Assembly (NCBI GenBank): GCA_017453285.1
Contig: JAFTKL010000027.1
Location: forward strand, 1-46,548
Length of the DNA: 46,548 bases
Source of the DNA: Clostridia bacterium
GTDB taxonomy: Bacteria > Bacillota > Clostridia > Oscillospirales > CAG-272
Direction of reading: 5' to 3'
The notes under the pieces were generated by a model that was not told where the DNA came from, did not search any database, and was given only the letters and a program-made list of their open reading frames with translations. The position numbers and the translations under genes are program-made. This document shows, in pieces, positions 4,039-46,047 of this stretch (positions within the stretch are counted from its first letter, which is position 1; the number at the start of each line of letters is the position of its first letter).

Positions 4039-4061
4039 TTGAGAGATCAAATTTAAGATAT

Positions 4062-4097
4062 AAAAATAACACCGCACGAACGTGCGGTGTTATTTTT
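4062..4097. terminator. Bidirectional intrinsic terminator between convergent genes
   Basis: aaaaataacaccgcac-gaa-cgtgcggtgttattttt: a perfect stem flanked by A- and T-tracts. Confidence 0.8.
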
Positions 4098-4100
4098 GTC

Positions 4101-5705
4101 TTACTTATTTATCTTCTTAAGCAGATCTCTAAACTCGGTTTTTTCCTTGTCAAGCTCGAGGTCGTGGATCGTATCTATCAGTTCGCGGAGCGATCTGTTT
4201 GCTTTGTTGTACGCGCTGTCGCGGATGAGCATCGAGAACTCGATCACCGTGCTTGCAAATACGAAATCCTCGTCGGGATCACTCGTGAGCTGAGCCTCTC
4301 CGAGATCTATCTCGCGAAGCTCGCTAACCTCTGAGTCGATCTCTTTGTAGCGGATAGAGAGCTTGATCCAATTGGTCTGCTCGTCGTTTTCCGTGCCGCT
4401 TTCTTCATCTGTCGTGTCGAGAGCCGCATCGGTGAGCTTGAGCTCGTAGCAGACAGTCAGCGTGTGTCCCGCGCCGACCTCGCCTGCGTCCTTGGTGTCG
4501 TCGTCAAAATCTTCGTTGTCGAGGAGTCTGTTTTCGTAGCCGATCAGTCTGTACTCGGATACGTAATCCTTGTCGAACTTGAGCTGGAACTTTACGTCCT
4601 TGGCTACCGTGTAGATGGTGGAGAGCAGCGATGTCGCGAATATGCGTTCAGCCTCAGCCGCAGAGTCGATATAGTGGTAAACGCCGTTGCCGGTCTGCGC
4701 GATCGCGCTCATATTGTCGTCGCGGAAGTTGCCGCTTCCAAATCCGAGCACCGAGAGGAATACGCCGCTCTTGCGCTTGTTTTCAACAAGCTTTTCGAGC
4801 TGTTCGGGATCGCGGATGCCTACGTTAAGATCGCCGTCGGATGCGATGATGATACGGTTGTTGCCGTCGTGCTTGAAGTTCGCCTCTGCGATCTCGTAAG
4901 CCTTGACGATGCCTGCCTCGCCGTTGGTCGAGCCACCCGAGGAAAGATCGTTGATCGCGGCAAGGATGATCTCCTTCTTGTTGCCGGGCGTTCCCTCGAG
5001 CACTACGCGCTCGTTGCCTGCGTAGGTGACGATAGATACCGTGTCGTTCTCGTCAAGCTGATCGACGAGATAGGAGAAAGCCTGCTTGAGAAGCGGGAGC
5101 TTGTCGTCCGCGTTCATCGAGCCCGAAACGTCGATGAGGAATACGAGGTTGTTTGCCGTTCTGGTCTCAAGCTCCTTTGCCTTGAGTCCGAGCATCAGAA
5201 GGTAGGTGTCCTCGTTCCAGGGCGAGCGCGCGATCGTCGCCTTGGTGCCGAACATCTCGCCCTCGGGCGCGCTTGCGTAGGAATAGTTGAAGTAGTTGAC
5301 CATCTCTTCGGTGCGTATCACGTTTGCGCGTGCGATGTCCTTGAGCTCCTCAAAGGAGTAGCCCGAGTTTATCATCTTGCGCAGGAAAGTGTAGGATGCC
5401 GTGTCAACGTCGGCTGAGAAGGTCGAGGTGTCCATTGTCTCTACCTTTACAAAGGGATTTTCGAATATCTTGTTTACGTTCTCGCTCGGCTTATCCTCTA
5501 TCGGCGCGTCGGGAACGGCGCCTTCCTCGACGGGCGGTTCACCGTAGATATCTCCGGGAGCGTTCGGAGCATTACCTGCCGCACCGTTCATTCCGTCCAT
5601 TCCGTCGGCGTTGCCCATCGCTTCGTCCATCTTGCTGCAGGACGCGAAGCAGAGAAGTGAAAGTATTGCTATCAGGGTTATCAGAATAAGTTGCGCTTTT
5701 TTCAT
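4101..5705 (-). CDS. von Willebrand factor type A domain lipoprotein (YfbK-like)
   Basis: Lipobox (LLCFASC) and MIDAS motif DVSGSM in NLVFLIDVSGSMNADDKLPLLK. It has the N-terminal vWA-associated region (FSADVDTASY) and a C-terminal extension. It is the third gene of the sigma operon. Confidence 0.85.
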   Translation of the reverse strand: MKKAQLILITLIAILSLLCFASCSKMDEAMGNADGMDGMNGAAGNAPNAPGDIYGEPPVEEGAVPDAPIEDKPSENVNKIFENPFVKVETMDTSTFSADVDTASYTFLRKMINSGYSFEELKDIARANVIRTEEMVNYFNYSYASAPEGEMFGTKATIARSPWNEDTYLLMLGLKAKELETRTANNLVFLIDVSGSMNADDKLPLLKQAFSYLVDQLDENDTVSIVTYAGNERVVLEGTPGNKKEIILAAINDLSSGGSTNGEAGIVKAYEIAEANFKHDGNNRIIIASDGDLNVGIRDPEQLEKLVENKRKSGVFLSVLGFGSGNFRDDNMSAIAQTGNGVYHYIDSAAEAERIFATSLLSTIYTVAKDVKFQLKFDKDYVSEYRLIGYENRLLDNEDFDDDTKDAGEVGAGHTLTVCYELKLTDAALDTTDEESGTENDEQTNWIKLSIRYKEIDSEVSELREIDLGEAQLTSDPDEDFVFASTVIEFSMLIRDSAYNKANRSLRELIDTIHDLELDKEKTEFRDLLKKINK

Positions 5706-5733: not shown

Positions 5734-6387
5734 TCAGTTTGCGTTCTCGATTGCGTTTGTGATAAGCTCGATGAAGTACTGCGACGGCTCAAGCTCGGGG
5801 TCGTAGTCGAAGAGCTGACCGTAGCCGATATTTCCGTTCGAGTTCTCAAGATAAGGTGTGTAGACCAGACCGTCGCCAAAGCAGATCCAGAAGCCCTCAA
5901 GCTCGCCAAGATCATACTCGGCATCCGTGCGGACAAATCCGTTTTTCTCTGCAAGCGCGGTCTTTATCCTTCTTGCATCGCGGTCGGACAGCGTGCAGAT
6001 ACGGTAGTCCTCCTCGTCCTCGTACTGCCAGATGAGCAGCGTCTCGCCCTCAAAGAGCATCTCACGCTCAAGCGGTGAGGCAAAGCTCTGCGTCTCTGTC
6101 TTCATCCCGATAAGCGTGTCGGCAAAATGGCTGTCGGTGACGGGCGGCTCCGTGTTTCCTACGTGGTCCTCTTGCCCGGGAGCTTCGCTGTTCTTTTGCG
6201 AGAACAGTCCGACAAGCAGCGAGAGTGTGAGCGACATCACGAGCACCGTGCAGGCGCAAAGCGCGAGCACGCGGCGCAGGGGAGCGTATCTTTTCTTTGG
6301 CAGAGCGACCTGCGCTTCAAAGATAAATCTGTCGTCGATCGAGCCGATGGCATCCATCAGAAGCTCGCCGCGTTTGTTTTCTCTCAT
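5734..6387 (-). CDS. Single-pass membrane protein, putative anti-sigma partner (module 1)
   Basis: ATGA start/stop overlap with the upstream sigma gene. The N-terminal motif LLMDAIGSIDDRFIFEA is shared with the ORFs at 40136 and 44477. A basic stretch and one TM helix (VLALCACTVLVMSLTLSLLVGLF) follow. Confidence 0.7.
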   Translation of the reverse strand: MRENKRGELLMDAIGSIDDRFIFEAQVALPKKRYAPLRRVLALCACTVLVMSLTLSLLVGLFSQKNSEAPGQEDHVGNTEPPVTDSHFADTLIGMKTETQSFASPLEREMLFEGETLLIWQYEDEEDYRICTLSDRDARRIKTALAEKNGFVRTDAEYDLGELEGFWICFGDGLVYTPYLENSNGNIGYGQLFDYDPELEPSQYFIELITNAIENAN

Positions 6388-6938
6388 AGCGTCACGTCCT
6401 CCTCTCCAAGCACTCTCCGCAGCTCCTCACGGGTGCGGTGAAGGGATGTCTTGACCTTGGAGACGCTGATGCCGAGCCTCTTCGCTATAACGTCGACGGG
6501 GTCGGAGAAGAAATATCTGCGCACGAATATCACGCGTTTTTCTTCCTCGAGCTCGCCAAGAAAGCGATTTATGATCTCTGTCAGCCGTCCGCTCTGGTAT
6601 TGTTCCTCGATACTGCAGCTATCGGGGATACATTCGTCAAGCTCGGAGCATAGATTTTCAAATCCTCCTCGCTTTTGACGGTGCTGTGAGCGAAATCTGC
6701 TGATCGACAGCGCGCGGATGATCTTCGAGAGATATGCACCCAGATAAATCGGGCGGTCGGTGGGCATCTGATTCCAAGCTCTGAGATAGGTGTCGTTGAC
6801 ACACTCATCGGCATCCTCTTGCGAGTTGAGTAAGGAATATGAAATACCCGACAGCATTCTCTCGTATTTGTGGCGCGTTTCGACTATCGCGTCCTCCGAG
6901 CGCTCCCAATACAGATCTACGATCTTGTAGTCCTCCAT
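6384..6938 (-). CDS. RNA polymerase sigma factor, sigma-70 family (ECF-like), paralog 1
   Basis: 184 aa. Region 2 (DECVNDTYLRAW) and a region 4 HTH (VIAKRLGISVSKVKTSLHRTREEL) are present. It is paralogous to 39586..40143 and 43926..44480. Confidence 0.85.
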   Translation of the reverse strand: MEDYKIVDLYWERSEDAIVETRHKYERMLSGISYSLLNSQEDADECVNDTYLRAWNQMPTDRPIYLGAYLSKIIRALSISRFRSQHRQKRGGFENLCSELDECIPDSCSIEEQYQSGRLTEIINRFLGELEEEKRVIFVRRYFFSDPVDVIAKRLGISVSKVKTSLHRTREELRRVLGEEDVTL

Positions 6939-6962: not shown

Positions 6963-7004
6963 GCCTTCACCCTATATGTCGCCAAACGTAGCGGTTTGGT
7001 TACA
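6963..7004 (-). promoter_or_regulatory. Conserved upstream motif of the sigma paralogs (candidate autoregulated promoter), copy 1
   Basis: The - strand reads tgtaac-N20-catata-gggtgaaggc, ending 24 nt before the start codon. The same architecture occurs at 39519-39561 and 43834-43877. Confidence 0.4.
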
Positions 7005-7256
7005 ACATTTTTGAAAAAATTTTAAAAAAAGCGCAAAATTTTAAAAAATTTCAAAAAACGAGTGAATTTCTATATAAATTATAGTGTTATTTCTGCCGTT
7101 TGTCAATAAAAATATAGTATTTTAGCGATCTTTGAGAAAAAAAGCAAAAATATTTAAAAATCCTCTTGATTTTTCTTCTCGTTTATGATACAATGTTAAG
7201 GCTAACGACTATTTTGGCTCATTTTGAGCGTTTAAACAGTTTTTTGGAGGTTTAGT

Positions 7257-17083: not shown

Positions 17084-17779
17084 ATGATGCTGGATACAAA
17101 AATTCTCATTGTTGACGATGATACCAATATATGCGATCTGCTCAAGCTCTATTTTGAAAACGAGGGCTACGCAGTAAAAAGTGCAAACGACGGAGTTGAG
17201 GGACTCAACTTTTTCAAGATCTACGACCCCGATATCGTTCTGCTCGATATAATGCTTCCCAAAAAGGACGGCTGGCAGGTCTGCCGCGAGATCCGCGAGA
17301 TCTCCTCGAAGCCTATCATTATGATCACCGCAAAGGGCGAGGTGTTCGACAAGGTGCTCGGACTTGAACTCGGCGCTGACGACTTCGTCGTAAAGCCCTT
17401 CGATATGAAGGAGCTGAGCGCGAGAGTCAAGGCGGTGCTTCGCCGCTATCAGTCGCACTCCACGCAGAACGACGAAGACGTTATCAAGTTTGATAACATA
17501 GAGATAAGCCACCAGAAGTACGAGCTGAAGCTCTGCGGAAAGCCTGTTGACGTTCCGCCCAAGGAGCTCGAGCTGCTCTATTTCCTCGCGTCAAACTCCA
17601 ACCGCGTCTTCACACGCGATCAGCTTCTTGACAAGGTCTGGGGATTTGATTACCTCGGCGACTCGAGAACTGTCGACGTTCACGTAAAGCGTCTGCGCGA
17701 GAAGCTTGACGGAGTGTCGGATAAGTGGTCGCTCAAGACTGTCTGGGGCGTTGGATACAAATTTGAAGTTTTAGGCTGA
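17084..17779 (+). CDS. OmpR-family response regulator
   Basis: Receiver domain (ILIVDDD, phospho-acceptor context LLDIMLP, K in VVKPF) and a winged-helix C-terminus (VWG..RTVDVHVKRLREKL). Confidence 0.9.
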   Translation: MMLDTKILIVDDDTNICDLLKLYFENEGYAVKSANDGVEGLNFFKIYDPDIVLLDIMLPKKDGWQVCREIREISSKPIIMITAKGEVFDKVLGLELGADDFVVKPFDMKELSARVKAVLRRYQSHSTQNDEDVIKFDNIEISHQKYELKLCGKPVDVPPKELELLYFLASNSNRVFTRDQLLDKVWGFDYLGDSRTVDVHVKRLREKLDGVSDKWSLKTVWGVGYKFEVLG

Positions 17780-17845
17780 TATCAGCCGCAAAAAAGGCTG
17801 TTTGCTTGCAAACGGCCTTTTATTTGATCTTTTTTTGGAGAGACT

Positions 17846-19294
17846 ATGTTTAAGAGTATTTTTTCAAAATACGTTTCGGCATTTATGCTGATAATAATAC
17901 TCAGCTTCGCCGTCGTCGTGGTGACTACCGTGTCTGTGGTCGGAAACTACGCGACAGCCGCAAAGAAGGACGGAATGGACAACTGCGCATCGCTCGCAAG
18001 TGCCTACGTTGACGCGGTGATGAGAAGCGCGGACGGTGAGGGGCTTGAGCGTGTGATGGATCGCGATCGAGAGAAGATCACCGACGCGCTCACGAAAAGC
18101 AGCTTCGGGCTTGACCGTGTGACTATGCTCGTGTGCGATAAGGATGGCAAGATCTTGCTTGTGAGCGGTGATAGCGACAAAATAGACAGCTCGCTGATGC
18201 TACCGCAGGAGCTGACCGATAGACTTGCATCTGAGGGCAGAGCATCGGGGATAGGAGTAGGCAAGGGCGCGCTTGGCAATATGAAGCTCTCCGAGGCGGT
18301 CGCGCTTGTCGATGAGAACGGCGAGATCTACGGCTCTGTCGTAGCTTGTTCGGACAGTCTGATGATCGGCGAGCTTCTCAACGTGATCATCCGCATCGTC
18401 AGCGGCTCGATACTCTGGGTGCTGCTTGCCGCGCTCATAGCGGTCTATTTCATCAGCGAGCGAGTGATCGCGCCTCTGCGTGAGATCAGCTCGGCGGCAA
18501 AGAAGTTCGCATCAGGAAAGTTCGACGTTCGCGTGCCCGTCAGAGGTAGTGACGAGGTTGCGGAGCTGGCGGCGACCTTCAATAATATGGCTGAGTCGCT
18601 CGATCACTATGACGATATGCGAAACAGCTTTATGTCGAACGTTTCGCACGACCTGAGAAGTCCGATGACATCGATCTCGGGATTTATCGACGGAATACTC
18701 GACGGAGTTATTCCGCCCGAACAGCATACCTACTATCTGCAGGTGGTCTCAAGTGAGATCAAGAGACTTTCGCGACTCGTCAATTCATTGCTCGATCTGT
18801 CGCGAATTCAGGCAGGCGAGCGAAAGTTCACGCCGATGCCCTTTGATATATGCGAGACCTCGAGACAGATACTTATCTCGTTTGAACAAAAGATAGACGC
18901 AAAGCGACTTGAGGTCGAATTTGAGTGTGAGGAAGAGCGTATGATCGCGCTTGCCGATCCCGATTCGATCTATCAGGTGCTCTACAACCTTTGCGACAAC
19001 GCGGTAAAATTTGCGAGCGAGGGCGGTCTGCTTGCTATAAGAGTGAAGCACGCGAAGGGAAAGAAGATCTCGGTCGAGGTCTTTAACGAAGGTCAGGGAA
19101 TTGCGCCAAGCGACGTAAATCTTGTATTTGAGCGTTTTTACAAGAGCGACAAGAGCCGCGGACTCAACAAAAACGGCGCGGGACTCGGGCTCTTTATCTC
19201 AAAAACCATCATCGACGCGCAGGACGGCGAGATCTGGGTAGAGAGCGAGTATGGCAAAAACTGTTGCTTTGGCTTCACGATCGCAAGTGAATAA
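17846..19294 (+). CDS. Sensor histidine kinase (two TM helices, HAMP, HisKA, HATPase_c)
   Basis: H-box FMSNVSHDLRSPMTS, N-box YNLCDNAVKF, and G-boxes EGQGI and GAGLGL. Confidence 0.9.
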   Translation: MFKSIFSKYVSAFMLIIILSFAVVVVTTVSVVGNYATAAKKDGMDNCASLASAYVDAVMRSADGEGLERVMDRDREKITDALTKSSFGLDRVTMLVCDKDGKILLVSGDSDKIDSSLMLPQELTDRLASEGRASGIGVGKGALGNMKLSEAVALVDENGEIYGSVVACSDSLMIGELLNVIIRIVSGSILWVLLAALIAVYFISERVIAPLREISSAAKKFASGKFDVRVPVRGSDEVAELAATFNNMAESLDHYDDMRNSFMSNVSHDLRSPMTSISGFIDGILDGVIPPEQHTYYLQVVSSEIKRLSRLVNSLLDLSRIQAGERKFTPMPFDICETSRQILISFEQKIDAKRLEVEFECEEERMIALADPDSIYQVLYNLCDNAVKFASEGGLLAIRVKHAKGKKISVEVFNEGQGIAPSDVNLVFERFYKSDKSRGLNKNGAGLGLFISKTIIDAQDGEIWVESEYGKNCCFGFTIASE

Positions 19295-19387
19295 AATATA
19301 AGCCTGATTGCAAAAAATATTTGCAGTATGCGCCGCGGTGATCGACAAAATCCTTCGCCGCGGCGCGTTTTTTGAGGTGGTTTATGT

Positions 19388-20236
19388 ATGTATAATGATA
19401 GAGAAGATCGCGAAGGGGAGAAGATCGTCTGCGTGGGCGAGGAGAAGCAGATAGTCAGAGTTGAGACACTTGACGGTGAGTGGGCAGAAGAGCGCACAGG
19501 GCGGCAATTCCGTGTCGGAATTGCGCTGATATGCGCCGTGAGTTTTCTGCTTTTGATTTATCTGCTAAGTACGCTTGCGGTAGGAAACAGCAGAGACGAA
19601 AGCGACGGTGAAAGTGCGACCGAGCTACAAAGTGAGTGGCGCGGCGCGTTTGATAGTAGTGAGATAAGTGAAGCAAGCATCTGCGCAAGCGTCGGAGTGC
19701 GAGCGGGAAGTGCAGGTGAGTACGGCGCGCCGTCGGCGAGCGGATTTGTAATAGACGGTAGCGGTTGGGTGGCTACCTCGTCCTCTGTCCTTACGGGCGC
19801 ACCGAGAGGACGGATATACGTTATAGACAGCGAGGGTGAGACACACGCGGTGAGCGCAATTTTTGCCGATAAGGCAAGCGGATTGGCATTTCTGCGCGTC
19901 GGGGAGGGCGAGCTTGCCGCCGCCCGCGCTCTTGGTTCTGACGGTCTGTGTATGGGCGAGAAGCTGATCGCAGTTTCCTCAAGCGGTGCACCCGAGCATA
20001 GCGTAAAGCTCAGCGTTGGTAGCTTTGGCGCAAAGGAATGTACCGTGTGGCTCGAAGATAATATCGGGCGGCGCGAGGGGCAGATGTACACCGATATGTA
20101 TTTTGAAGACAGCGCGCTCGGTAGCCCCGTGTTTGACTCAAGCGGACGGATAGTAGCCATGGCTCTGATCGCGAATAGCGGCTACGTCACACCGATAGAG
20201 CAGATCGTCGAGAGCTTTCGTGGAATACTTGAATAA
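19388..20236 (+). CDS. Membrane-anchored trypsin/HtrA-fold protein, catalytic triad apparently substituted
   Basis: One TM helix (VGIALICAVSFLLLIYLL) followed by an S1C-like fold. When aligned to HtrA motifs, TSSSVL replaces TNxHV, SGLAFLRV replaces DLAVL, and SALGSPVF replaces GNSGGPL. Confidence 0.65.
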   Translation: MYNDREDREGEKIVCVGEEKQIVRVETLDGEWAEERTGRQFRVGIALICAVSFLLLIYLLSTLAVGNSRDESDGESATELQSEWRGAFDSSEISEASICASVGVRAGSAGEYGAPSASGFVIDGSGWVATSSSVLTGAPRGRIYVIDSEGETHAVSAIFADKASGLAFLRVGEGELAAARALGSDGLCMGEKLIAVSSSGAPEHSVKLSVGSFGAKECTVWLEDNIGRREGQMYTDMYFEDSALGSPVFDSSGRIVAMALIANSGYVTPIEQIVESFRGILE

Positions 20237-20405: not shown

Positions 20406-21095
20406 ATGGCTTTTTGGGAGCTGCTCGTCCGTCTGCTCGTCGCGACCTTTTGCGGCGGTATCATCGGAATTGAGCGAGGAAAGAAAAACAGACCTGCGGG
20501 ATTTCGCACCTACATACTCGTCTGCGTTGGCGCAAGCCTTACGGTAATGCTCAGCCTCTACCTTGCGGCGATGGATCCCACCTGGAGAGAGATCGCGCCC
20601 TCGCTGCTCCGCTCCGACGTGTCGCGCTTCGGTGCGCAGGTCATCAACGGTATAGGTTTTCTCGGCGCAGGAACTATCATAATCACGGGTAACCAGCAGG
20701 TCAAGGGAATGACTACGGCGGCAGGCCTTTGGGCATCCGCGTGTATGGGCCTTGCGATCGGCGCGGGATTTTACACGGGCGCGCTCTTCGGATGCGTGCT
20801 TATCATCGCGACCACCGCGCTTTTCTCGAAGCTCGAGTCCTTTATTCTGGCTCGCTCGAGAAATATCAACCTCTACGTCGAGTTCGAGAAGACCGAGGAT
20901 CTGACAAAGATCACCACCTGCCTGCACGAGAGAAACGTTCGAATCTACGACGTTGAGCTCTCGAAGGCAAGACAGAACGACTCCAAATACCCCGGAGCGA
21001 TATTCTCGCTCAAGCTGCCAAAGAAGGTGTCGCACGCCGCTGTCGTTACCGAGATCGCCTCGATAAAGGCGGTACGAACGATAGAAGAGCTTTGA
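20406..21095 (+). CDS. MgtC/SapB family membrane protein (paralog 1)
   Basis: FCGGIIGIERGKKNRPAGFRTYILVC signature with a C-terminal ACT-like domain. Confidence 0.85.
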   Translation: MAFWELLVRLLVATFCGGIIGIERGKKNRPAGFRTYILVCVGASLTVMLSLYLAAMDPTWREIAPSLLRSDVSRFGAQVINGIGFLGAGTIIITGNQQVKGMTTAAGLWASACMGLAIGAGFYTGALFGCVLIIATTALFSKLESFILARSRNINLYVEFEKTEDLTKITTCLHERNVRIYDVELSKARQNDSKYPGAIFSLKLPKKVSHAAVVTEIASIKAVRTIEEL

Positions 21096-21120
21096 TAGGG
21101 CTTTACCAGGGAGGAAAGAA

Positions 21121-21816
21121 ATGCTTCAATTTTTAGATTTTCTGCGTACGGGAGAGATAGGCTGGCTGACGGTCGCCGTACGACTCGTGCTTGCGGTATT
21201 CTGCGGCGGATTTATTGGACTTGAGCGCGAGCGCAAGCGTCGTCCTGCAGGCTTCCGTACACATATACTTATTTGTCTCGGCGCGGCTATGACCACGCTG
21301 ACAAGCCAATTCCTCGCGCTCAACCTCGGTGCTAACACCGACACGGCGCGCCTGGGCGCTCAGGTCATCGCCGGCGTCGGCTTTATCGGTGCCGGAACGA
21401 TCATCGTTACCAAGCGCCGTCAGGTCAAGGGACTCACCACGGCGGCAGGACTCTGGACGGCGGCGATCGTCGGACTTTGCTGCGGCGCGGGATTTTTCGA
21501 GGGCGCGGTGATCGCGACGCTCATCATACTTATTGTAGAATTCGCATTCGTCAAGCTTGAATATTCGATATTCAACACCTCGCGCGCCTTTAACATTTTC
21601 GTTGAATACAGCGAGGCGCAAAATCTTGGTGTTATAGTTGACGTCATAAAGAAGAACGGCGGGTACATCAAGGATATTGAGATCACAAAGAGCAGCTCGG
21701 ACGGCACGAACGCATGTGCGATATTCTCGCTTAAAATGCCCAAAAAACAGCCCCACCAGATGCTGATGACCACGATAATGAACGTCGAGGGTGTGGCAAA
21801 CGTCGAGGAGCTTTAA
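21121..21816 (+). CDS. MgtC/SapB family membrane protein (paralog 2)
   Basis: FCGGFIGLERERKRRPAGFRTHILIC. It is a tandem paralog of the preceding gene. Confidence 0.85.
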   Translation: MLQFLDFLRTGEIGWLTVAVRLVLAVFCGGFIGLERERKRRPAGFRTHILICLGAAMTTLTSQFLALNLGANTDTARLGAQVIAGVGFIGAGTIIVTKRRQVKGLTTAAGLWTAAIVGLCCGAGFFEGAVIATLIILIVEFAFVKLEYSIFNTSRAFNIFVEYSEAQNLGVIVDVIKKNGGYIKDIEITKSSSDGTNACAIFSLKMPKKQPHQMLMTTIMNVEGVANVEEL

Positions 21817-23662: not shown

Positions 23663-23736
23663 GGCACCCGCAACGGGAATCGAACCCATAACTACCCCTT
23701 AGGAGGGGGTTATTATATCCATTTAACTATGCAGGC
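23662..23736 (-). tRNA. tRNA-Arg (anticodon CCT), 75 nt, CCA encoded
   Basis: Manual cloverleaf. Acceptor is GCCTGCA/TGCGGGT with two G-U pairs. D arm is GTTA-AATGGATA-TAAT. Anticodon arm is ACCCC-CTCCTAA-GGGGT. T arm is ATGGG-TTCGATT-CCCGT, followed by G73 and CCA. Confidence 0.7.
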
Positions 23737-38598: not shown

Positions 38599-38675
38599 TG
38601 GCACGGCGTAAGGGATTCGAACCCCCGACCTTTTGGTTCGTAGCCAAACACTCTATCCAGCTGAGCTAACGCCGC
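38599..38675 (-). tRNA. tRNA-Arg (anticodon ACG), 77 nt, CCA encoded
   Basis: Manual cloverleaf. Acceptor is GCGGCGT/ACGCCGT. D arm is GCTC-AGCTGGATA-GAGT. Anticodon arm is TTTGG-CTACGAA-CCAAA. T arm is GGGGG-TTCGAAT-CCCTT. It closely resembles Firmicute Arg-ACG tRNAs. Confidence 0.85.
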
Positions 38676-39518: not shown

Positions 39519-39561
39519 TGTAATAATCGGGCATATTTTTCTGTCTATTAGGGTGAAGGGC
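39519..39561 (+). promoter_or_regulatory. Conserved upstream motif of the sigma paralogs, copy 2
   Basis: tgtaat-N20-ctatta-gggtgaagggc, ending 25 nt before the ATG. Confidence 0.4.
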
Positions 39562-39585: not shown

Positions 39586-40143
39586 ATGGAAGACAAAAGA
39601 ATAGTGGATCTCTATTGGATGCGCTCCGAGAGTGCGATCAGCGAGACCGACAAGAAATACGGCAAATATTGCCGCTACATAGCCGAGCGCATACTCGAGA
39701 GCGAGGAGGACGCGCACGAGGTGCAGAATGACACCTATCTTCAAGTATGGAACACCGTGCCGCCAAATCGCCCCGATCCGCTCAAACCGTATGTAGGCGC
39801 GATCAGCCGAAATCTCTCGCTCAATCGCTACGAGGCGAAACACGCGCAGAAGCGAGAAGGAGTGCTTGGTGAGGCACTCGAGGAGCTGTCCGAGTGTATT
39901 GCGCAGAAAGATGACATCCCTACCGAGCGTGAAGAGCGACTTGGCGAGCTTCTCGATAGCTTCCTTGCGACACTTCCCAAGCGCACGAGAAGGGTATTTC
40001 TGCGCAGATATTGGTACGCGAGCAGTATAGAGGAGATCGCAAAGGACTACGGAATGAGCGAGAACCACGTGACCGTAATGCTTTGCAGAACCAGAAAAGC
40101 TCTGGCAGATATCTTGCAAAAGGAGGGATTTCTCAATGAATGA
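39586..40143 (+). CDS. RNA polymerase sigma factor, sigma-70 family (ECF-like), paralog 2
   Basis: MEDKRIVDLYWMRSESAISETDKKYG...EVQNDTYLQVW (region 2) and IAKDYGMSENHVTVMLCRTRKAL (region 4). Confidence 0.85.
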   Translation: MEDKRIVDLYWMRSESAISETDKKYGKYCRYIAERILESEEDAHEVQNDTYLQVWNTVPPNRPDPLKPYVGAISRNLSLNRYEAKHAQKREGVLGEALEELSECIAQKDDIPTEREERLGELLDSFLATLPKRTRRVFLRRYWYASSIEEIAKDYGMSENHVTVMLCRTRKALADILQKEGFLNE

Positions 40144-41617
40144 AAAGGATATTTTGAGGGCTCTGGGCGGCGTAAGTCCGGAATTTATAGCCGATGCCGC
40201 ACCGAAAGAAAAGCTCAGACATAGAAACCCGATGCTCTTTCGCCTTATAGCCGCGCTGATCTCGGTGGCGATACTTATGGGCGCGCTCTTCGCGGCGATC
40301 GTAGTGCCCAAAATAGTAAACGAGATGTTCGTCCCCACGCCGTCGCCCTACGGCAGATACGTGCTCTCGCTTGCAAAGTACCCAGAGATGATGCAGATGC
40401 CGAAGAGAGAGGATTATGCGAGCTACAGTGAATATTCTGATGCCAAATACGATTGGCAACGAGCAACGGCAAAGCAATCCGGGTCAGGCTTGAATGGAGA
40501 GTCTGTTGCTAAGCTTTATCCGTTCTTCTCTGATTTTACAAGTGAAGCTTTGAAGACGGATAAAGACGAAAATCTGGTCGTTTCGCCGCTTACAATGTAT
40601 ATGCTTCTTTCTATGCTCGGAGAGATGACCGACGGAGAGACGCGAGAGCAGATATTTGACGTTCTGAACATTTCGACAATCGAGGAACTGCGCACTCTGG
40701 CGAGTGGAGTATGGAATAGTACGTATTGTGATAACGGTGGCTTTAAATCTGTACTTGCTAACTCGGTATGGTTGGATGAGAGCATCAGATTTAACAGAAA
40801 CGTTGCACATACTTTGTCTGAAATCTATTATGCTTCGTCATTTGAGGGCGATTTTTCCAAGAAGAAATACGTTAGTGAATACTGCAATTGGATGAATGAG
40901 AATACGGGAAATCTGTTTGGATTCTCTCCGGAAAATGCGTCCGTTGACGATCAAACCTTGATGAGCATTGTCAGCACGCTGTATTTTGAATCCGCATGGA
41001 GAGATGATAACTCCTTTAACTCAAATAACAACTACAACGATGTTTTCCATACGAATTCGGGTGACGTTGAAGTAACCTATATGAAGAGAATGATCGAACG
41101 TCATCTTTTTGGTTCGGAATACTTTTATGCGACATATCTTGAGCTTGGTAGCGACGGAAAAATGTGGATCTTTCTTCCCGATGAAGAAGACACTGTTGAG
41201 GACGTGTTGTCAAGTAAAGATTTTATGAACTTGGTAACCAAAGGAAACGGTGTTGAATGCAAGGAATATGAAATTACGCTATCCCTGCCAAAGTTTGATA
41301 TTACTTCACATGACAGCGCAGAAAAATATCTTGAAAGACTTGGAATAACCGATATCTTCGGCGCAAATGCTGACTTTTCACCCGTGACAGACAGTAATGT
41401 GGCTGTAGGAGAAATTCTGCAGGGAGCGCGCCTGAAAATAGACGAGGAAGGTGTTGTGGGCGGAGCGTATAGTGAAGCGGTGATTTATTACGGCGAACCA
41501 CTACCCCTTCAAAAGAATATCGATTTAGTAGTAAACCGTCCGTTTGTCGTTGCTATTACAACACGCGCAAACCTGCCGCTCTTTATCGGCGTCGTCAACG
41601 ATCCCACCAAAAATTGA
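40136..41617 (+). CDS. Single-pass membrane protein: anti-sigma-like N-terminus fused to an extracytoplasmic serpin domain
   Basis: 8-nt overlap with the sigma gene. It carries the shared N-motif DILRALGGVSPEFIADAAP and one TM helix. Serpin hallmarks occur in order: NLVVSPLTMYMLLSMLGEMTDGETREQI, NWMNENTGNLF, LPKFDI, LGITDIF, hinge KIDEEGVVGGAYS, NRPFVVAI. Confidence 0.8.
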   Translation: MNEKDILRALGGVSPEFIADAAPKEKLRHRNPMLFRLIAALISVAILMGALFAAIVVPKIVNEMFVPTPSPYGRYVLSLAKYPEMMQMPKREDYASYSEYSDAKYDWQRATAKQSGSGLNGESVAKLYPFFSDFTSEALKTDKDENLVVSPLTMYMLLSMLGEMTDGETREQIFDVLNISTIEELRTLASGVWNSTYCDNGGFKSVLANSVWLDESIRFNRNVAHTLSEIYYASSFEGDFSKKKYVSEYCNWMNENTGNLFGFSPENASVDDQTLMSIVSTLYFESAWRDDNSFNSNNNYNDVFHTNSGDVEVTYMKRMIERHLFGSEYFYATYLELGSDGKMWIFLPDEEDTVEDVLSSKDFMNLVTKGNGVECKEYEITLSLPKFDITSHDSAEKYLERLGITDIFGANADFSPVTDSNVAVGEILQGARLKIDEEGVVGGAYSEAVIYYGEPLPLQKNIDLVVNRPFVVAITTRANLPLFIGVVNDPTKN

Positions 41618-41631
41618 TATATTATCAAGAG

Positions 41632-41663
41632 ACCGCCTGCCGAGTTTTCGGCAGGCGGTTTTG
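41632..41663 (+). terminator. Intrinsic terminator; the identical sequence recurs at 45587
   Basis: accgcctgccgagttttcggcaggcggtttt. Confidence 0.85.
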
Positions 41664-42368: not shown

Positions 42369-42378
42369 AAAACTAACC

Positions 42379-43656
42379 TCAGAACCCGTTGAGTCCCCAT
42401 TTGATCATTATTTCTTTATAATTCTTGTATGCGTAGTTGAGGTCGAAAGAGCAGTTAAAGCCGTCGATCTTGCCCTCCTCGGAGTATTGCCACATACCGA
42501 GCTGCTTGCCGTACTTCTGCTCGTTCCAGGTCGGCTTTTCGGTGAGCGGGTAGCGCGCGTACCACACGTCGTAGAGCGTGAATATCTTCGCGCCGTCGAG
42601 GATGTAGGTCAGCCAATTGTGGTTGGAATAGAGCCCCGCATAGTAGCCCTCGGACTGAAGAAGCGTGATAAAACGCTCGCACATCTCGCTAAGGTAGTTC
42701 TTGCCGAGAGCCTCAAGTGAGGCATCCTCAAGGTCGAGATATATCGGGTACTCGAACTTCTTGCCCTCAAGATAGGAAAGCAGATCGCGCGCGTCCTTCT
42801 CGATGCCCTCAAGCGTGGTCGCATAGGTGTAGAAATAAACTCCGATCTCCAGTCCCGCGGCGCGCGCGCCCTCGTAGTCCATCTCAAATGTCGGCTCAAG
42901 TCCGCTCTTGGTGCTGCCTGCCTTCAGGATCACAAAATCAACACCCGAGTCGGCGATCTTCTTCCAATCGAGCGGCAGATAGTTGTCCTCTGTGTCGGTG
43001 CCGTGGTTCCAACGCGACACATCAATGCCGCTTGCCACCACCTCGGAGCTGCCCACGTAGGCATTCTCGAGAATGTCACTGTAGTAGACGTAATCGGCGG
43101 TGTAGGAAAACGAGCACTCGCAGACGTAGGTCGTGCATCCCGGCGTCGTCGCGGTCGGGCGCGTGGTGGTCACTTCAAAGCTGTGACCGAGTGAGTCGAT
43201 ATAGTCGGACGTGTATTCGTAGTCACACGCGCGGCAGGTGTAGTGCGTAAATCCCTCGGTCGTGCAGGTCGGTTCGGTTACTTCCTTTGCGAAGCTGTGC
43301 CCGTAGGGAGTCAGAAAATCCGAGTCGTACGCGTAGCCGCAGGCGCATTCGTAGTGCGTGTAGCCCTGAGCGGTGCAGGTGGGCGGATAGATAGACATAG
43401 TCGGCTTGTGCAGAGAGCAGGGAAGATCGCGCTCTACAACCTTGCCGCACTTCTTGCACGCGCTTTCCTCGGTTCCGAGGCGGTTGCACTCGGGCTCGAG
43501 CACCGTCTGCCACTCGCCAAACTCGTGCGCGCAGGGCAGACTCTCCTTTGGTATCTCAACATCGCCGTCGGGAGTATTGCTGCCGTCCGACGAGCAGGAG
43601 AGAAGAGAGAGCAAAAGAATAATGATAAATCCAAAAATAAATATTCTGGTCTTCAA
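42379..43656 (-). CDS. GH25 muramidase lipoprotein with N-terminal Cys-rich repeats
   Basis: TTG start with RBS ggagga and a lipobox (LSLLSC). There are about 4 Cys-rich modules. The GH25 signature is GIDVSRWNH...LDWKKIADSGVDFVILKAG...YFY...DLE...WQYS. Confidence 0.8.
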   Translation of the reverse strand: MKTRIFIFGFIIILLLSLLSCSSDGSNTPDGDVEIPKESLPCAHEFGEWQTVLEPECNRLGTEESACKKCGKVVERDLPCSLHKPTMSIYPPTCTAQGYTHYECACGYAYDSDFLTPYGHSFAKEVTEPTCTTEGFTHYTCRACDYEYTSDYIDSLGHSFEVTTTRPTATTPGCTTYVCECSFSYTADYVYYSDILENAYVGSSEVVASGIDVSRWNHGTDTEDNYLPLDWKKIADSGVDFVILKAGSTKSGLEPTFEMDYEGARAAGLEIGVYFYTYATTLEGIEKDARDLLSYLEGKKFEYPIYLDLEDASLEALGKNYLSEMCERFITLLQSEGYYAGLYSNHNWLTYILDGAKIFTLYDVWYARYPLTEKPTWNEQKYGKQLGMWQYSEEGKIDGFNCSFDLNYAYKNYKEIMIKWGLNGF

Positions 43657-43833: not shown

Positions 43834-43877
43834 TGAAATATTCGCACATCGTTTTGCGTCTATATAGGTGAAAGGGC
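43834..43877 (+). promoter_or_regulatory. Conserved upstream motif of the sigma paralogs, copy 3
   Basis: tgaaat-N20-ctatat-aggtgaaagggc. Confidence 0.4.
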
Positions 43878-43925: not shown

Positions 43926-44480
43926 ATGGATGATAAGCAAATTGTAGAACTCTTTTGGGAACGTTCCGAGGATGCAATTGCCGAGACCGATAGAAAATAC
44001 GGCAGATATATTTTGTTCATAGCCCAAAACGTGCTTTCTGATGACGAGGACGCACGCGAGGTGCAGAATGACACCTATCTGCGCACTTGGGATAGCATTC
44101 CGCCCGAGCGACCGACTGCGCTGAGAGCCTACGTCGGCGCAATATGCCGAAATCTTGCGCTCAGCAGATACAGAAGAAAATATGCGGAGAAACGCCAAGG
44201 TTGCGTGGATACCGCGATCGACGAGCTTGCCGACTGCCTGCCCGACGGGAATGACGGCGACCGCGTTGCAAGCGAGAGGATAGGTGATGCGCTCAACAGA
44301 TTTTTAGAGGGGCTTGAGCCGAACGAGAGAAAGGTGATCGTGCTGAGGTATTGGTATATGTGCAGTATCGACCGCATCGCCGAGGAATGCTCGATGAACA
44401 AAAACACCGTCGCAACGGTGCTTTTCAGAAAAAGACGAGAGCTTAAAGCTTTCTTAGAAAAAGAGGGGGTAAACGTATGA
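43926..44480 (+). CDS. RNA polymerase sigma factor, sigma-70 family (ECF-like), paralog 3
   Basis: MDDKQIVELFWERSEDAIAETDRKYG...EVQNDTYLRTW and IAEECSMNKNTVATVLFRKRREL. Confidence 0.85.
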   Translation: MDDKQIVELFWERSEDAIAETDRKYGRYILFIAQNVLSDDEDAREVQNDTYLRTWDSIPPERPTALRAYVGAICRNLALSRYRRKYAEKRQGCVDTAIDELADCLPDGNDGDRVASERIGDALNRFLEGLEPNERKVIVLRYWYMCSIDRIAEECSMNKNTVATVLFRKRRELKAFLEKEGVNV

Positions 44481-45532
44481 AGAAAGAAGATATTTTCAAT
44501 GCCTTTGAAGAGCTTGACCCGAAGTTTATAGAGGAGGCAGCGCCGAAGATGAATAAAGTAAAAAAGAACACCTTTGTTTTGCGCATCGCCGCAGTTGCCG
44601 CGTGTGTCGCCCTGCTCGTAAGTGTCGTAGTGGTAAGCACGCTTATGCTTAACCGAGAGGATGAGGATCCACCCGACGTGCCGAGTGAGACGATCACGCC
44701 CGACGAAAAGGCAGAGTACATTATGTATATTGATGTCGGTATGGATGCAAATGCTCCTCCTTTGGAGACTGATAAATTCACCGTAAAAACGGATTCAGCA
44801 GAAGAACTGGACCTTTCGTGTTTGAATAGAATAGAGAAAGAAAGCGTGGAAAATACTACAAATCAAATATCACTTGATTTGTTAAATAACCATTGGAAAC
44901 TAGAATACAATAGGACATTCGAAAGAGGTCTTTATCATAGCGACAATTTTTCACATCTCGGTACCTATGATGAATATGTCTCAGATGATGCAGTGGTATA
45001 TATCAATAAAATCAATGGAGAACTGATGTTTTTATCAGACAAGGAAATCGATAGAACAGCAGAAGGTGATTTCAGCATAGAAGAAGGCAAACAAGCGGCG
45101 AAAGAGATACTTGCTATTCTGTATGGCGAAGAAGTTCTTGAATATTATGGAGAACCAATATTTAGCGATACAGTTTTGGAGAATAATCTCAGTCTTGGAC
45201 AGGAAGTCTTGATTAAAGTTGTTTATGAAAAGGCAGCCTTAGGGTACAGAACCGACGATAGAATTACCGTTAAATTCAATAGAGAAGGAAAGTTGGTTTC
45301 TATCAATGCTATGAAACGGAATACTATGACGCGTGTAGAAGAAGATATTACCAAGGAACAGACTGACAAAGCATTGAATGTGTTGAAGCAGCAATTTCCG
45401 AATGATAAAATAGAATCAGCAATAATATCTGTTGCCGCTGATGGAAAATATTATATAACAACTACTGTTATAAGATATCTTTCAATGCATCCTGTACGTT
45501 ACCCGCTGAAGTTAGCGATGAATATACAGTAA
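44477..45532 (+). CDS. Single-pass membrane protein, putative anti-sigma partner (module 3) with an unrecognised ectodomain
   Basis: ATGA overlap with the sigma gene, N-motif DIFNAFEELDPKFIEEAAP and a TM helix (IAAVAACVALLVSVVVVSTLML). The ~270-aa ectodomain is encoded by much more AT-rich DNA. Confidence 0.75.
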   Translation: MKKEDIFNAFEELDPKFIEEAAPKMNKVKKNTFVLRIAAVAACVALLVSVVVVSTLMLNREDEDPPDVPSETITPDEKAEYIMYIDVGMDANAPPLETDKFTVKTDSAEELDLSCLNRIEKESVENTTNQISLDLLNNHWKLEYNRTFERGLYHSDNFSHLGTYDEYVSDDAVVYINKINGELMFLSDKEIDRTAEGDFSIEEGKQAAKEILAILYGEEVLEYYGEPIFSDTVLENNLSLGQEVLIKVVYEKAALGYRTDDRITVKFNREGKLVSINAMKRNTMTRVEEDITKEQTDKALNVLKQQFPNDKIESAIISVAADGKYYITTTVIRYLSMHPVRYPLKLAMNIQ

Positions 45533-45586: not shown

Positions 45587-45618
45587 ACCGCCTGCCGAGT
45601 TTTCGGCAGGCGGTTTTT
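45587..45618 (+). terminator. Intrinsic terminator, identical to the one at 41632
   Basis: accgcctgccgagttttcggcaggcggttttt, preceded by a second hairpin atactcaagcg..cgcttgagtat (45543-45574). Confidence 0.85.
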
Positions 45619-45824: not shown

Positions 45825-46047
45825 GATGTCACTCTTCACAATAAAATAGCAACCCGTGGTAGCCTGCTGTCCACGGGTTGCTTCCTCGCATTGATACTAA
45901 ATCACACAGCGAGAATATCGCTTTGGTTTACAGTATCCCAAACATCTTTAGAGAATATCGGCTAGAGTCACGTACAAACTCTATAACAACCCTCATTCAA
46001 GTTCTTTTGGTTCTTTTCTCCGAAAGAAAAGAACGAAAATCGCATCC
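45825..46047 (-). ncRNA. Conserved ~225-nt structured element, copy C
   Basis: ggatgcg follows the partial GH25 stop codon directly. Hairpin ttcttttc..gaaaagaa lies at 46011-46033. The terminator hairpin gcaacccgtgg..ccacgggttgc (45849-45881) is followed by a T-rich tract on the - strand, then attgtgaagagtga. Confidence 0.45.

What the first reader, a model, noticed from the sequence alone, without database searches (positions are those of the whole stretch)
5734..6938. Family of three sigma/partner modules defined by a short shared N-terminal partner motif
The three sigma paralogs (6384..6938 on the - strand, 39586..40143, 43926..44480) share the unusual N-terminus M-[ED]-D-x-x-I-V-[DE]-L-[YF]-W-x-R-S-E-x-A-I-x-E-T. 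Each overlaps by 4-8 nt (ATGA-type coupling) with a single-pass membrane protein. The partners share only about 20 N-terminal residues: LLMDAIGSIDDRFIFEA, ILRALGGVSPEFIADAAP and IFNAFEELDPKFIEEAAP. That is much shorter than classical zinc-binding (ZAS) or RsiW-type anti-sigma domains, and it contains no Cys or His. After the TM helix the ectodomains are unrelated: unknown, serpin, unknown. This points to a minimal anti-sigma peptide module that can be combined with arbitrary sensor domains.
Basis: partly seen in the sequence, partly recalled or inferred. Interest (0 to 1): 0.7.

Follow-up and report, generated by a model that had tools for sequence, protein, structure and literature searches.

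The report
Minimal anti-sigma peptide module in Clostridia
Three small stress-type (ECF) sigma factor genes in this gut Clostridia genome are each coupled to a membrane protein; its first ~25 residues form a conserved, unannotated peptide that most likely holds the sigma factor inactive, and the same peptide heads at least 1,700 protein clusters with very different outer domains.

Summary
Three ECF sigma genes are each overlapped by 4, 8 or 4 nt by a single-pass membrane protein with an N-terminal motif, consensus [LI][LF]xx[ILM]Gx[IV][DS][DE]x[YFL][ILV]x[ED]A. A polybasic stretch and a TM helix with a conserved AA(C)L follow.

The link holds in both directions:
- 79/79 sigma-selected genome loci carry such a partner.
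- 32/32 assessable motif-selected metagenome loci, and 6/6 sampled cluster representatives, have this sigma directly upstream.

The motif matches no Pfam or NCBIfam model and no solved anti-sigma chain. A 61-position profile finds 1,726 clusters (50% identity). In the 150 best-scoring (only these are listed) the match is almost always at residue 1. Their C-termini include serpin, beta-propeller, PepSY, RsgI_M, DUF4179 and many unknown domains.

Covariation over 98 pairs points to the first two helices of sigma region 4: sigma residue 139 L/M pairs with partner V/A in 33/33 cases, and V/I with I/L in 59/65. Each module has an ECF-type promoter (TGTAAC-N17-CGAC class).

Best reading: a very short membrane-tethered anti-sigma domain, probably released by intramembrane proteolysis. 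Binding and inhibition are inferred, not shown. I rate it a new variant of a known kind, of moderate interest.

The parts
7078..7106 (-). Housekeeping-type promoter-like site TTGACA-17-TATAAT (12/12) upstream of operon 1
6974..7004 (-). ECF-type promoter P1: TGTAAC-N17-CGAC followed by ATAT
   Evidence: The same architecture occurs in 59/81 family upstream regions, against about 6 expected in shuffles.
6964..6972 (-). Conserved GGGTGAAGG element just downstream of the -10 (role unknown)
   Evidence: It occurs only three times in the window, each time after one of the three promoters.
6384..6938 (-). ECF sigma factor 1 (184 aa)
   Evidence: AF2 secondary structure puts region 4 helices at 118-129, 132-143, 148-155 and 159-179.
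5734..6387 (-). Partner 1 (217 aa): putative membrane anti-sigma factor
   Evidence: all homologs named 'hypothetical', no Pfam. AF2: helix 7-14, TM helix 35-63, confident ectodomain 88-217.
6313..6363 (-). Partner 1 N-terminal motif LLMDAIGSIDDRFIFEA (residues 9-25)
6202..6276 (-). Partner 1 TM helix (about residues 38-62) with ALCAC
4101..5705 (-). YfbK-like vWA lipoprotein (vWF_A + VWA + YfbK_C), third gene of operon 1
   Evidence: Found directly downstream of the partner gene in 35 related loci, 31 nearly full-length and 3 cut by a contig end.
4060..4099 (-). Hairpin plus T-run terminator closing operon 1
39519..39548 (+). ECF-type promoter P2: TGTAAT-N17-TGTC, followed by TATTAGGGTGAAGG
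39586..40143 (+). ECF sigma factor 2 (185 aa)
40136..41617 (+). Partner 2 (493 aa): motif at 40151-40198, TM helix, serpin ectodomain (residues 133-490)
   Evidence: Near-identical representative P0104.
41632..41662 (+). Terminator hairpin after partner 2
43834..43863 (+). ECF-type promoter P3: TGAAAT-N17-CGTC, followed by TATATAGGTGAAAGG
43926..44480 (+). ECF sigma factor 3 (184 aa)
44477..45532 (+). Partner 3 (351 aa): motif at 44492-44539, TM helix, ectodomain with no family match
45587..45617 (+). Terminator hairpin after partner 3, identical to the one after partner 2

Best explanation
Each of the three loci is a self-contained ECF sigma / membrane anti-sigma signalling module.

Shown:
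- The sigma and partner genes are translationally coupled (ATGA-type overlap).
- They sit behind an ECF-type promoter of the TG[TCA]AA[CT]-N16/17-CG[AT]C class.
- The partner is a single-pass membrane protein with about 33-38 residues before the TM helix. These carry the motif [LI][LF]xx[ILM]-G-x-[IV]-[DS]-[DE]-x-[YFL]-[ILV]-x-[ED]-A, then a Lys/Arg run, then a TM helix with conserved AA(C)L.
- The motif is found essentially only downstream of this sigma clade, and the reverse holds too.
- Motif positions covary with residues 123-145 of the sigma, which are the first two helices of region 4.

Inferred:
- The N-terminus faces the cytoplasm (from the Lys/Arg run before the TM helix).
- The peptide folds on the sigma as a short helix, Gly turn and N-capped helix hairpin. 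It packs into the hydrophobic groove of region 4.1, the surface that binds the RNA polymerase beta-flap.
- This tethers the sigma to the membrane and keeps it off core polymerase.
- A signal at the variable ectodomain destabilises the partner. For partner 2 the signal could be a protease attacking the serpin loop. For partner 1 it could come from the co-encoded YfbK-like vWA lipoprotein.
- A site-2 protease then cuts in the Ala-rich TM helix. The released peptide is degraded from its Ala-rich end, as for B. subtilis RsiW (recalled from memory).
- The freed sigma drives its own promoter, which also replenishes the partner and its ectodomain.
For: Gene arrangement and coupling.

Forward co-occurrence: in 79/79 sigma-selected loci the next ORF overlaps the sigma stop (72 times by 4 nt) and carries motif plus TM. 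The 80th locus is cut by a contig end but still shows the motif.

Specificity: no convincing motif hit in any other ORF in 611 kb, six frames.

Reverse co-occurrence: 32/32 assessable motif-selected metagenome loci and 6/6 sampled representatives have this sigma upstream.

Covariation over 98 pairs:
- Seven of the nine best motif-core pairs fall in sigma residues 123-145.
- The best pair is 139 with motif position 12 (Z 0.50; permutation maximum 0.19; TM-column control maximum 0.25).
- Sigma 139 L/M goes with partner V/A in 33/33 pairs; V/I goes with I/L in 59/65.
- The switch recurs in at least 6 sigma clusters.
- Those residues lie in AF2 helices 118-129 and 132-143.

Promoters: (59/81 against about 6 by chance).

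Family members carry ectodomains known from established anti-sigma factors, RsgI_M and DUF4179.

Position +1, a single TM helix and no Pfam match fit what the ECF re-classification calls putative group-specific anti-sigma factors (PMC7826278).
Against: - No binding or inhibition data exist, and co-folding could not be run.
- Modelled alone, the partner N-terminus has low confidence (pLDDT about 50; only residues 7-14 are helical). That is expected for a peptide that folds on binding, but it is not positive evidence.
- The covariation rests on 98 related pairs (Neff 69). The permutation control breaks phylogeny, so part of the signal may be lineage structure.
- The proteolysis steps rest on analogy only. 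No site-2 protease or Clp gene was found among the window ORFs scanned.
- The signals sensed are unknown. The partner 1 ectodomain has no structural match.
Confidence: 0.7

Rival explanations
1. The partner is a positive regulator that binds the sigma (pro-sigma or co-sigma, as the FecR N-terminus is for FecI). The peptide would be needed for sigma folding, stability or activity, not for inhibition.
For: Co-occurrence and covariation show a partnership but not its sign. Translational coupling fits an obligate partner.
Against: Membrane tethering of a sigma-binding peptide is the standard inhibitory layout. The covarying surface is the region 4.1 helix pair, which by established ECF structures contacts the beta-flap, so occupying it should block the holoenzyme. 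The sigmas have complete region 2 and region 4 domains and no sign of needing a second subunit.
Confidence: 0.1
2. The module is a strongly shortened member of an already defined anti-sigma domain class (class II, CnrY/NepR-like, or a degenerate class I). It would then not be a distinct domain.
For: Class II domains are also short peptides. CnrH is among the detectable PDB relatives of the sigma (4cxf, E 2.7e-6).
Against: The N-terminal profile hits no anti-sigma chain in the PDB, even at E<=10. None of the 6 + 77 + 31 partners scanned hits a Pfam or NCBIfam anti-sigma model. The 33-38 cytoplasmic residues cannot hold the four helices of class I. The strongest covariation is with region 4, whereas CnrY and NepR clasp both sigma domains (recalled from memory).
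Confidence: 0.12
3. The partner is only a co-transcribed membrane or surface effector, such as a tethered serpin. The N-terminal motif would then be a membrane-insertion, sorting or turnover signal unrelated to the sigma.
For: The ectodomains look like effectors (serpin, beta-propeller). Motif plus basic stretch plus TM resembles a signal anchor. The N-terminus is not confidently folded alone.
Against: The motif is absent from all other ORFs in 611 kb of the same genomes. It always lies next to this sigma. It covaries with specific residues of sigma region 4 but not more than background with TM columns. A general sorting signal would not track one sigma clade.
Confidence: 0.06

Closest known systems
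Class I anti-sigma domain pairs (B. subtilis SigW/RsiW, E. coli RpoE/RseA; ZAS type)
   Same: The anti-sigma gene lies directly downstream and is coupled to an autoregulated ECF sigma. The protein is single-pass and its short N-terminal segment is inferred to contact the sigma. Release by regulated intramembrane proteolysis plus Clp is likely. SigW is among the nearest solved sigmas (5wuq, E 2.4e-9).
   Different: Class I is a four-helix domain of about 80-90 residues, often with H-x3-C-x2-C. Here there are 33-38 cytoplasmic residues with a 16-residue conserved core and no Cys/His motif. There is no hit to zf-HC2, RskA, RseA_N or any other anti-sigma model.
Class II anti-sigma domains (CnrY of Cupriavidus, NepR of Alphaproteobacteria)
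   Same: Very short peptide-like anti-sigma domains, which show that a small peptide can suffice.
   Different: No sequence similarity. CnrY is encoded at position -2 of ECF291 (PMC7826278). These are in Proteobacteria, not Clostridia. The strongest covariation here is with region 4.
SigI/RsgI modules of Clostridia and Bacilli
   Same: Many paralogous sigma/anti-sigma pairs per genome. One conserved N-terminal anti-sigma module is joined through one TM helix to very diverse extracellular sensor domains. One member of the present family even carries the RsgI_M central domain.
   Different: RsgI uses the RsgI_N domain and binds SigI, which is not a canonical ECF sigma (PMC6582324, PMC7826278). 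The partners scanned here returned no RsgI_N hit, and the sigmas here are canonical region 2 + region 4 ECFs.
B. subtilis SigX/RsiX
   Same: P1 (TGTAAC-N17-CGAC) matches the SigX promoter consensus as I recall it from memory.
   Different: Not orthologous: the NCBIfam SigX model scores 33.7 bits against a cut-off of 260.
ECF289-type anti-sigma factors with vWA + DUF3520 (YfbK_C) ectodomains (PMC7826278)
   Same: An ECF system is linked to a YfbK-like vWA/YfbK_C protein.
   Different: There the vWA/DUF3520 part belongs to the anti-sigma protein. Here it is a separate lipoprotein gene after the partner.

Membership tests
ECF (group 4) sigma-70 family | Regions 2 and 4 present, region 3 absent, about 180-200 aa | tested here: met
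   Sigma70_r2 and Sigma70_r4_2 hits in all three. TIGR02937 scores 60-75 bits against a cut-off of 42.9. No significant region 3 hit.
ECF (group 4) sigma-70 family | Autoregulatory bipartite promoter (AAC-type -35, CGT/CGA-type -10) upstream of the sigma operon | tested here: met
   P1, P2 and P3 found. The architecture is in 59/81 family upstream regions against about 6 by chance. Use by this sigma is inferred.
ECF sigma group or subgroup of the ECF Hub classification | Assignment by the ECF Hub HMMs | not testable with these tools
   The supplement with the group descriptions is not held. No NCBIfam equivalog reaches its cut-off.
Class I anti-sigma domain (ZAS / RsiW / RseA / RskA type) | Match to zf-HC2, RskA, RseA_N or related models | tested here: not met
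   No family at E<=1 for partners 1 and 2. Partner 3 has only two non-anti-sigma hits, both below cut-off. None among 77 + 31 further partners. No PDB anti-sigma chain at E<=10.
Class I anti-sigma domain (ZAS / RsiW / RseA / RskA type) | Cytoplasmic four-helix domain of about 80-90 residues; H-x3-C-x2-C in the ZAS subclass | tested here: not met
   The TM helix starts at residues 28-52 in 79/79 partners, and the conserved core is 16 residues. No Cys or His in the motif.
Class II anti-sigma domain (CnrY / NepR) | Sequence or structural similarity to CnrY or NepR | tested here: inconclusive
   No sequence match to PDB chains. Structural similarity of a bound peptide cannot be judged without a complex model.
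Anti-sigma factor (functional definition) | Binds the cognate sigma and inhibits its transcription | not testable with these tools
   Only indirect support: strict co-occurrence and covariation with sigma residues 123-145.
Regulated intramembrane proteolysis substrates | Cleavage by a site-2 protease within the TM helix, then Clp degradation | not testable with these tools
   Only the conserved AA(C)L in the TM helix is seen (63/81 and 70/81 Ala), which resembles the Ala-rich tag of RsiW as I recall it.
RsgI anti-sigma-I family | RsgI_N domain and a SigI partner | tested here: not met
   The Pfam scans returned no RsgI_N hit. The sigma is a canonical ECF. One relative has RsgI_M in its ectodomain only.
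Serpin (partner 2 ectodomain) | Full-length match to the serpin fold model | tested here: met
   PF00079, 5.6e-56, residues 133-490, profile positions 9-370 of 370. Inhibitory competence of the loop hinge (DEEGVVGGAYSEAV) was not assessed beyond reading the sequence.

The most novel reading that the evidence does not exclude
The motif is a fourth structural class of anti-sigma domain. It would be a peptide of about 25 residues (helix, Gly turn, helix) that inhibits an ECF sigma by plugging only the beta-flap-binding groove of region 4.1. Gut Clostridia would use it as a universal adaptor, with at least 1,700 clusters at 50% identity. In the serpin-fused members the ectodomain would act as a suicide bait: attack by an external protease consumes the serpin, triggers loss of the anti-sigma factor, and induces more serpin.
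Probability: 0.3. Interest if true: 0.65.

Novelty: new variant of a known kind. Interest (0 to 1): 0.5.

Why it matters
ECF sigma/anti-sigma pairs are a major route by which bacteria sense their surroundings, and they are prized as orthogonal parts for synthetic circuits. This work defines a large, unannotated family of partner proteins in gut and rumen Clostridia. It gives:
- a 16-residue signature;
- a predicted contact (sigma residue 139 with motif position 12, plus neighbours);
- a promoter consensus.

A sigma-inhibiting peptide of about 25 residues would be the smallest transferable anti-sigma unit, and it is easy to test and engineer. The family would give a function to the N-termini of the 'hypothetical' membrane proteins seen here. 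It also points to what these bacteria may sense, for example proteases through serpin ectodomains.

Tried and rejected
- Searching the 5.8-billion-protein set with the 60-residue N-terminal profile gave only 17 short fragments and no names. The short profile is too weak for that database size. Genome context and the representative search were used instead.
It was redone with 11 closer sequences.
- The supplement of the ECF re-classification, which describes each group, is not held. The sigma could therefore not be assigned to an ECF group.
- Foldseek of the partner 1 model against the PDB gave nothing below E 0.2. The ectodomain fold remains unassigned.
- The conserved element after the -10 was tested as an RNA structure. 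The three leaders fold no better than shuffles, and Rfam finds only two tRNAs in the window.
- I looked for natural sigma-partner fusions that could serve as a covalently linked complex for structure prediction. None is among the best 120 sigma relatives or the best 150 motif matches.
- The two top motif hits, P0086 and P0087, are tandem-repeat proteins without a TM helix. Their score is the sum of 11-13 weak matches, so I rejected them as unrelated.
- Literature searches for serpin plus anti-sigma, YfbK plus sigma, and Rsi24C gave no description of this motif.
Full report
**1. What is in the window**

The three gene pairs exist as described.
- Sigma 1 (6384-6938, minus strand) is overlapped by 4 nt (ATGA) by partner 1 (5734-6387).
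- Sigma 2 (39586-40143) is overlapped by 8 nt by partner 2 (40136-41617).
- Sigma 3 (43926-44480) is overlapped by 4 nt by partner 3 (44477-45532). The junctions were read.

All three sigmas are canonical ECF proteins. They hit Sigma70_r2 and Sigma70_r4_2 and pass the TIGR02937 cut-off, but reach no equivalog model. Sigmas 2 and 3 are each 42% identical to sigma 1, and all three share the N-terminus M-[ED]-D-x-x-I-V-[DE]-L-[YF]-W-x-R-S-E-x-A-I-x-E-T.

The partners align only over their first ~60 residues. That stretch holds a motif, a basic linker and one TM helix. After the TM helix, partner 2 is a full-length serpin (PF00079, 5.6e-56). Partners 1 and 3 match nothing in Pfam or NCBIfam. A regex for the partner motif hits exactly three times in the six-frame translation of the window, always at a partner N-terminus.

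**2. Is the association real? Forward test**

I scanned one genome per species (GTDB) with the sigma alignment. It found 262 relatives, and the best 80 loci were kept. All are Clostridia, mostly gut and rumen MAGs. L001, a water-deer rectum MAG, is 99% identical to the window.
- In all 79 loci with DNA downstream, the next ORF overlaps the sigma stop: by 4 nt in 72, by 7 in five, by 8 in one and by 14 in one.
- All 79 have a TM helix starting at residues 28-52.
- By eye, the N-terminal motif is present throughout.
- The 80th locus is cut by the contig end, but the motif is still detected.

Column statistics give the core as [LI][LF][DRE][AE][ILM]-G-x-[IV]-[DS]-[DE]-x-[YFL]-[ILV]-x-[ED]-A. Gly is present in 65/81 sequences and the final Ala in 76/81. 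A run of Lys/Arg follows, often with W-R-[RK]-x-W, and then a TM helix with a conserved AA(C)L (Ala in 63/81 and 70/81).

An HMM of the 22 motif columns was searched against all 5,626 six-frame ORF segments of the loci and the window (611 kb). It recovered the 82 partners, the cut partner in L063, and only one other hit, at 6.9 bits. The motif is therefore not a common sequence.

**3. Reverse test**

A metagenome scan with the pattern [LI][LF]DAIGx[IV]DD returned 33 confirmed loci, several of them copies of the same gene. In 32 of them a sigma of this clade lies directly upstream (HMM E-values 1e-29 to 1e-87), mostly with the 4-nt overlap. The 33rd starts 106 nt before the partner, so it cannot be assessed.

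A 61-position profile of the module was then run against 1.84 billion cluster representatives.
- It found 1,726 proteins at E<=0.001.
- Almost all of the best 150 match at residues 1 to ~60. Their lengths range from 41 to 817 residues.
- The two top hits are unrelated tandem-repeat proteins whose score is the sum of many weak matches.

I looked up six long representatives in their contigs. All six have an upstream gene overlapping by ATGA or GTGA that matches the sigma HMM; two of these are cut by a contig end.

**4. What follows the TM helix**
- Of 77 full-length partners from the genome loci, only five match any Pfam family at E<=0.001: Beta_propel 2, Serpin 2, DUF4349 1. Two weaker hits, FlgA_N and FG-GAP_3, were not assigned to particular members.
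- Of 31 long representatives: Beta_propel 5, Serpin 2, PepSY 2, RsgI_M 1, DUF4179 1, FG-GAP 1.
- RsgI_M and DUF4179 are domains of established Firmicutes anti-sigma factors. This fits the N-terminal module being interchangeable with other anti-sigma heads.
- Homologs of partner 1 are all named 'hypothetical protein' and have no Pfam domain.
- The AF2 model of partner 1 shows a short helix at residues 7-14, a low-confidence stretch, a TM helix at 35-63, and a confident alpha/beta ectodomain at 88-217 (pLDDT about 90).
- That model has no match in the PDB below E 0.2.

**5. Operon and promoter anatomy**

Pair 1 belongs to a conserved three-gene cassette. A YfbK-like lipoprotein (vWF_A + VWA + YfbK_C; window 4101-5705) follows the partner gene in 35 related loci. 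A hairpin terminator lies at 4060-4099.

Upstream of the sigma genes is a conserved bipartite promoter.
- P1: TGTAAC-N17-CGAC (7004-6974, minus strand).
- P2: TGTAAT-N17-TGTC (39519-39548).
- P3: TGAAAT-N17-CGTC (43834-43863).
- The same layout occurs in 59 of 81 family upstream regions, against about 6 (maximum 12) in shuffles.
- P1 matches the B. subtilis SigX consensus as I recall it. The sigma is not a SigX ortholog, however (33.7 bits against a cut-off of 260).

Each promoter is followed by a conserved TATAGGGTGAAGG-like element. It occurs only three times in the window. It is not a stable RNA structure and remains unexplained. Operon 1 also has a perfect TTGACA-17-TATAAT site about 100 nt further upstream.

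**6. Does the peptide touch the sigma?**

Co-folding is not available here, so I used covariation on 98 non-redundant pairs (Neff 69).
- With MI and APC correction, seven of the nine best pairs involving the motif core fall in sigma residues 123-145. They are 139 with motif position 12, 145 with 6, 140 with 21, 135 with 19, 128 with 16, 124 with 13, and 123 with 8.
- The best pair scores 0.50. The maximum over 20 permutations is 0.19. The maximum for the TM columns, used as a non-contact control, is 0.25, and that control's top pairs are scattered along the sigma.
- The leading pair is volume-compensating. Sigma 139 = L/M goes with partner V/A in 33/33 pairs. Sigma 139 = V/I goes with I/L in 59/65.
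- The switch recurs in at least six sigma clusters and also within clusters.
- In the AF2 model of sigma 1, residues 118-129 and 132-143 are the first two helices of region 4. They precede the helix-turn-helix at 148-155 and 159-179.
- From established ECF holoenzyme and anti-sigma structures, that helix pair forms the beta-flap-binding surface that anti-sigma factors occlude.

This is suggestive evidence for direct contact, not proof. The sample is small, and the permutation control does not preserve phylogeny.

**7. Mechanism proposed**

Shown: coupled genes, an ECF-type promoter, a conserved N-terminal peptide followed by a basic anchor and a TM helix, strict two-way linkage, and covariation with region 4.

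Inferred:
- The N-terminus faces the cytoplasm, as the basic stretch before the TM helix suggests.
- The peptide folds on sigma region 4.1 as helix, Gly turn and N-capped helix. It tethers the sigma to the membrane and keeps it off core polymerase.
- An ectodomain event leads to intramembrane cleavage in the Ala-rich TM helix and degradation of the released peptide.
- The free sigma then transcribes its own operon.
- For partner 2, an attractive but untested idea is that the serpin acts as a bait: attack by a protease would both neutralise the protease and induce more serpin.

**8. Comparison with what is known**

The kind of system is known. The ECF re-classification states that 114 of 157 groups have a putative anti-sigma factor, usually at position +1, usually with one TM helix, mostly without a Pfam match and mostly group-specific. 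It also notes a group (ECF289) whose anti-sigma factor carries vWA + DUF3520 (PMC7826278).

What is not documented in anything I could search is this particular motif.
- There is no Pfam (2025) or NCBIfam (2026) model for it.
- No PDB anti-sigma chain matches, even at E<=10.
- No paper describes it.

It fails the tests for class I (length, models, zinc motif) and for RsgI. Class II cannot be excluded structurally. The ECF Hub may already hold a group-specific HMM for it, which I could not check.

**9. Verdict**

I rate it a new variant of a known kind: a very short, very widespread anti-sigma head in Clostridia, with a specific and testable contact prediction. Interest 0.5.

Noticed in passing
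window 7078-7106 (-): A perfect housekeeping-type promoter match (TTGACA-17-TATAAT, 12/12) lies about 100 nt upstream of the ECF-type promoter P1. Operon 1 may therefore have a basal and an inducible promoter.
   Followed up: no
window 6964-6972 (-), 39551-39559 (+), 43866-43874 (+); also most of L001-L080: A conserved [AT]TA[TA]AGGGTGAAGG-like element directly follows the -10 of the family promoters. It occurs only at these three places in the window. It is not a stable RNA fold (z-scores near 0). Its role (discriminator, start site, or a binding site) is unexplained.
   Followed up: partly
window 41632-41662 and 45587-45617; 42377-42676 and 46046-46345: An identical 31-nt terminator hairpin follows both partner 2 and partner 3. 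Each is followed by a convergent GH25 muramidase gene whose 3' ends are 74% identical. This suggests a segmental duplication of a sigma / partner / GH25 block.
   Followed up: partly
window 4101-5705 (-); L001-L036, L104, L108: A YfbK-like vWA lipoprotein (vWF_A + VWA + YfbK_C) is the conserved third gene of the pair 1 subfamily, in 35 loci. In other phyla the same domains are fused to the anti-sigma factor itself (ECF289).
   Followed up: partly
window 40532-41605 (+); L076 4783-5985; L004 7109-8158: [quoted passage not shown] In L004 a separate serpin gene lies downstream of a pair 1-type operon. No paper linking serpins and anti-sigma factors was found.
   Followed up: partly
window 5734-6123 (-) (partner 1 residues 88-217): The partner 1 ectodomain is modelled with high confidence (pLDDT about 90) and has invariant W, Y, F, G and P positions across homologs. 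It has no PDB structural match below E 0.2, so it may be an undescribed small sensor fold.
   Followed up: partly
partner TM helices, e.g. window 6202-6276 (-): The TM helix carries a conserved AA(C)L (Ala in 63/81 and 70/81 sequences), preceded by a Lys/Arg run and W-R-[RK]-x-W. That is unusual conservation for a membrane anchor, and may be a protease or degradation determinant.
   Followed up: no
L068 1680-3577 (same MAG as L001): A further sigma/partner pair (448-aa partner, motif FELIEDEFIEEA) sits on another contig of the MAG closest to the window. It matches none of the three window pairs, so this organism probably has at least four such modules.
   Followed up: no
P0086, P0087 (representative search): Two proteins of about 700 aa are built from 11-13 tandem ~55-residue repeats, each containing L[ML]QA[IL]GEVEPE[DE]. 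They topped the motif search by summed weak matches. They have no TM helix and look unrelated; their origin is unknown.
   Followed up: partly
window 17084-20236 (+), 20406-21816 (+), 23665-23736 (-), 38602-38675 (-): The remaining genes scanned in the window look like ordinary chromosomal context: an OmpR-type two-component system followed by a trypsin-like (HtrA-type) protease, two tandem MgtC-family genes, two tRNA genes, and SpoVAD, SecG, TruB and YchF elsewhere.
   Followed up: no
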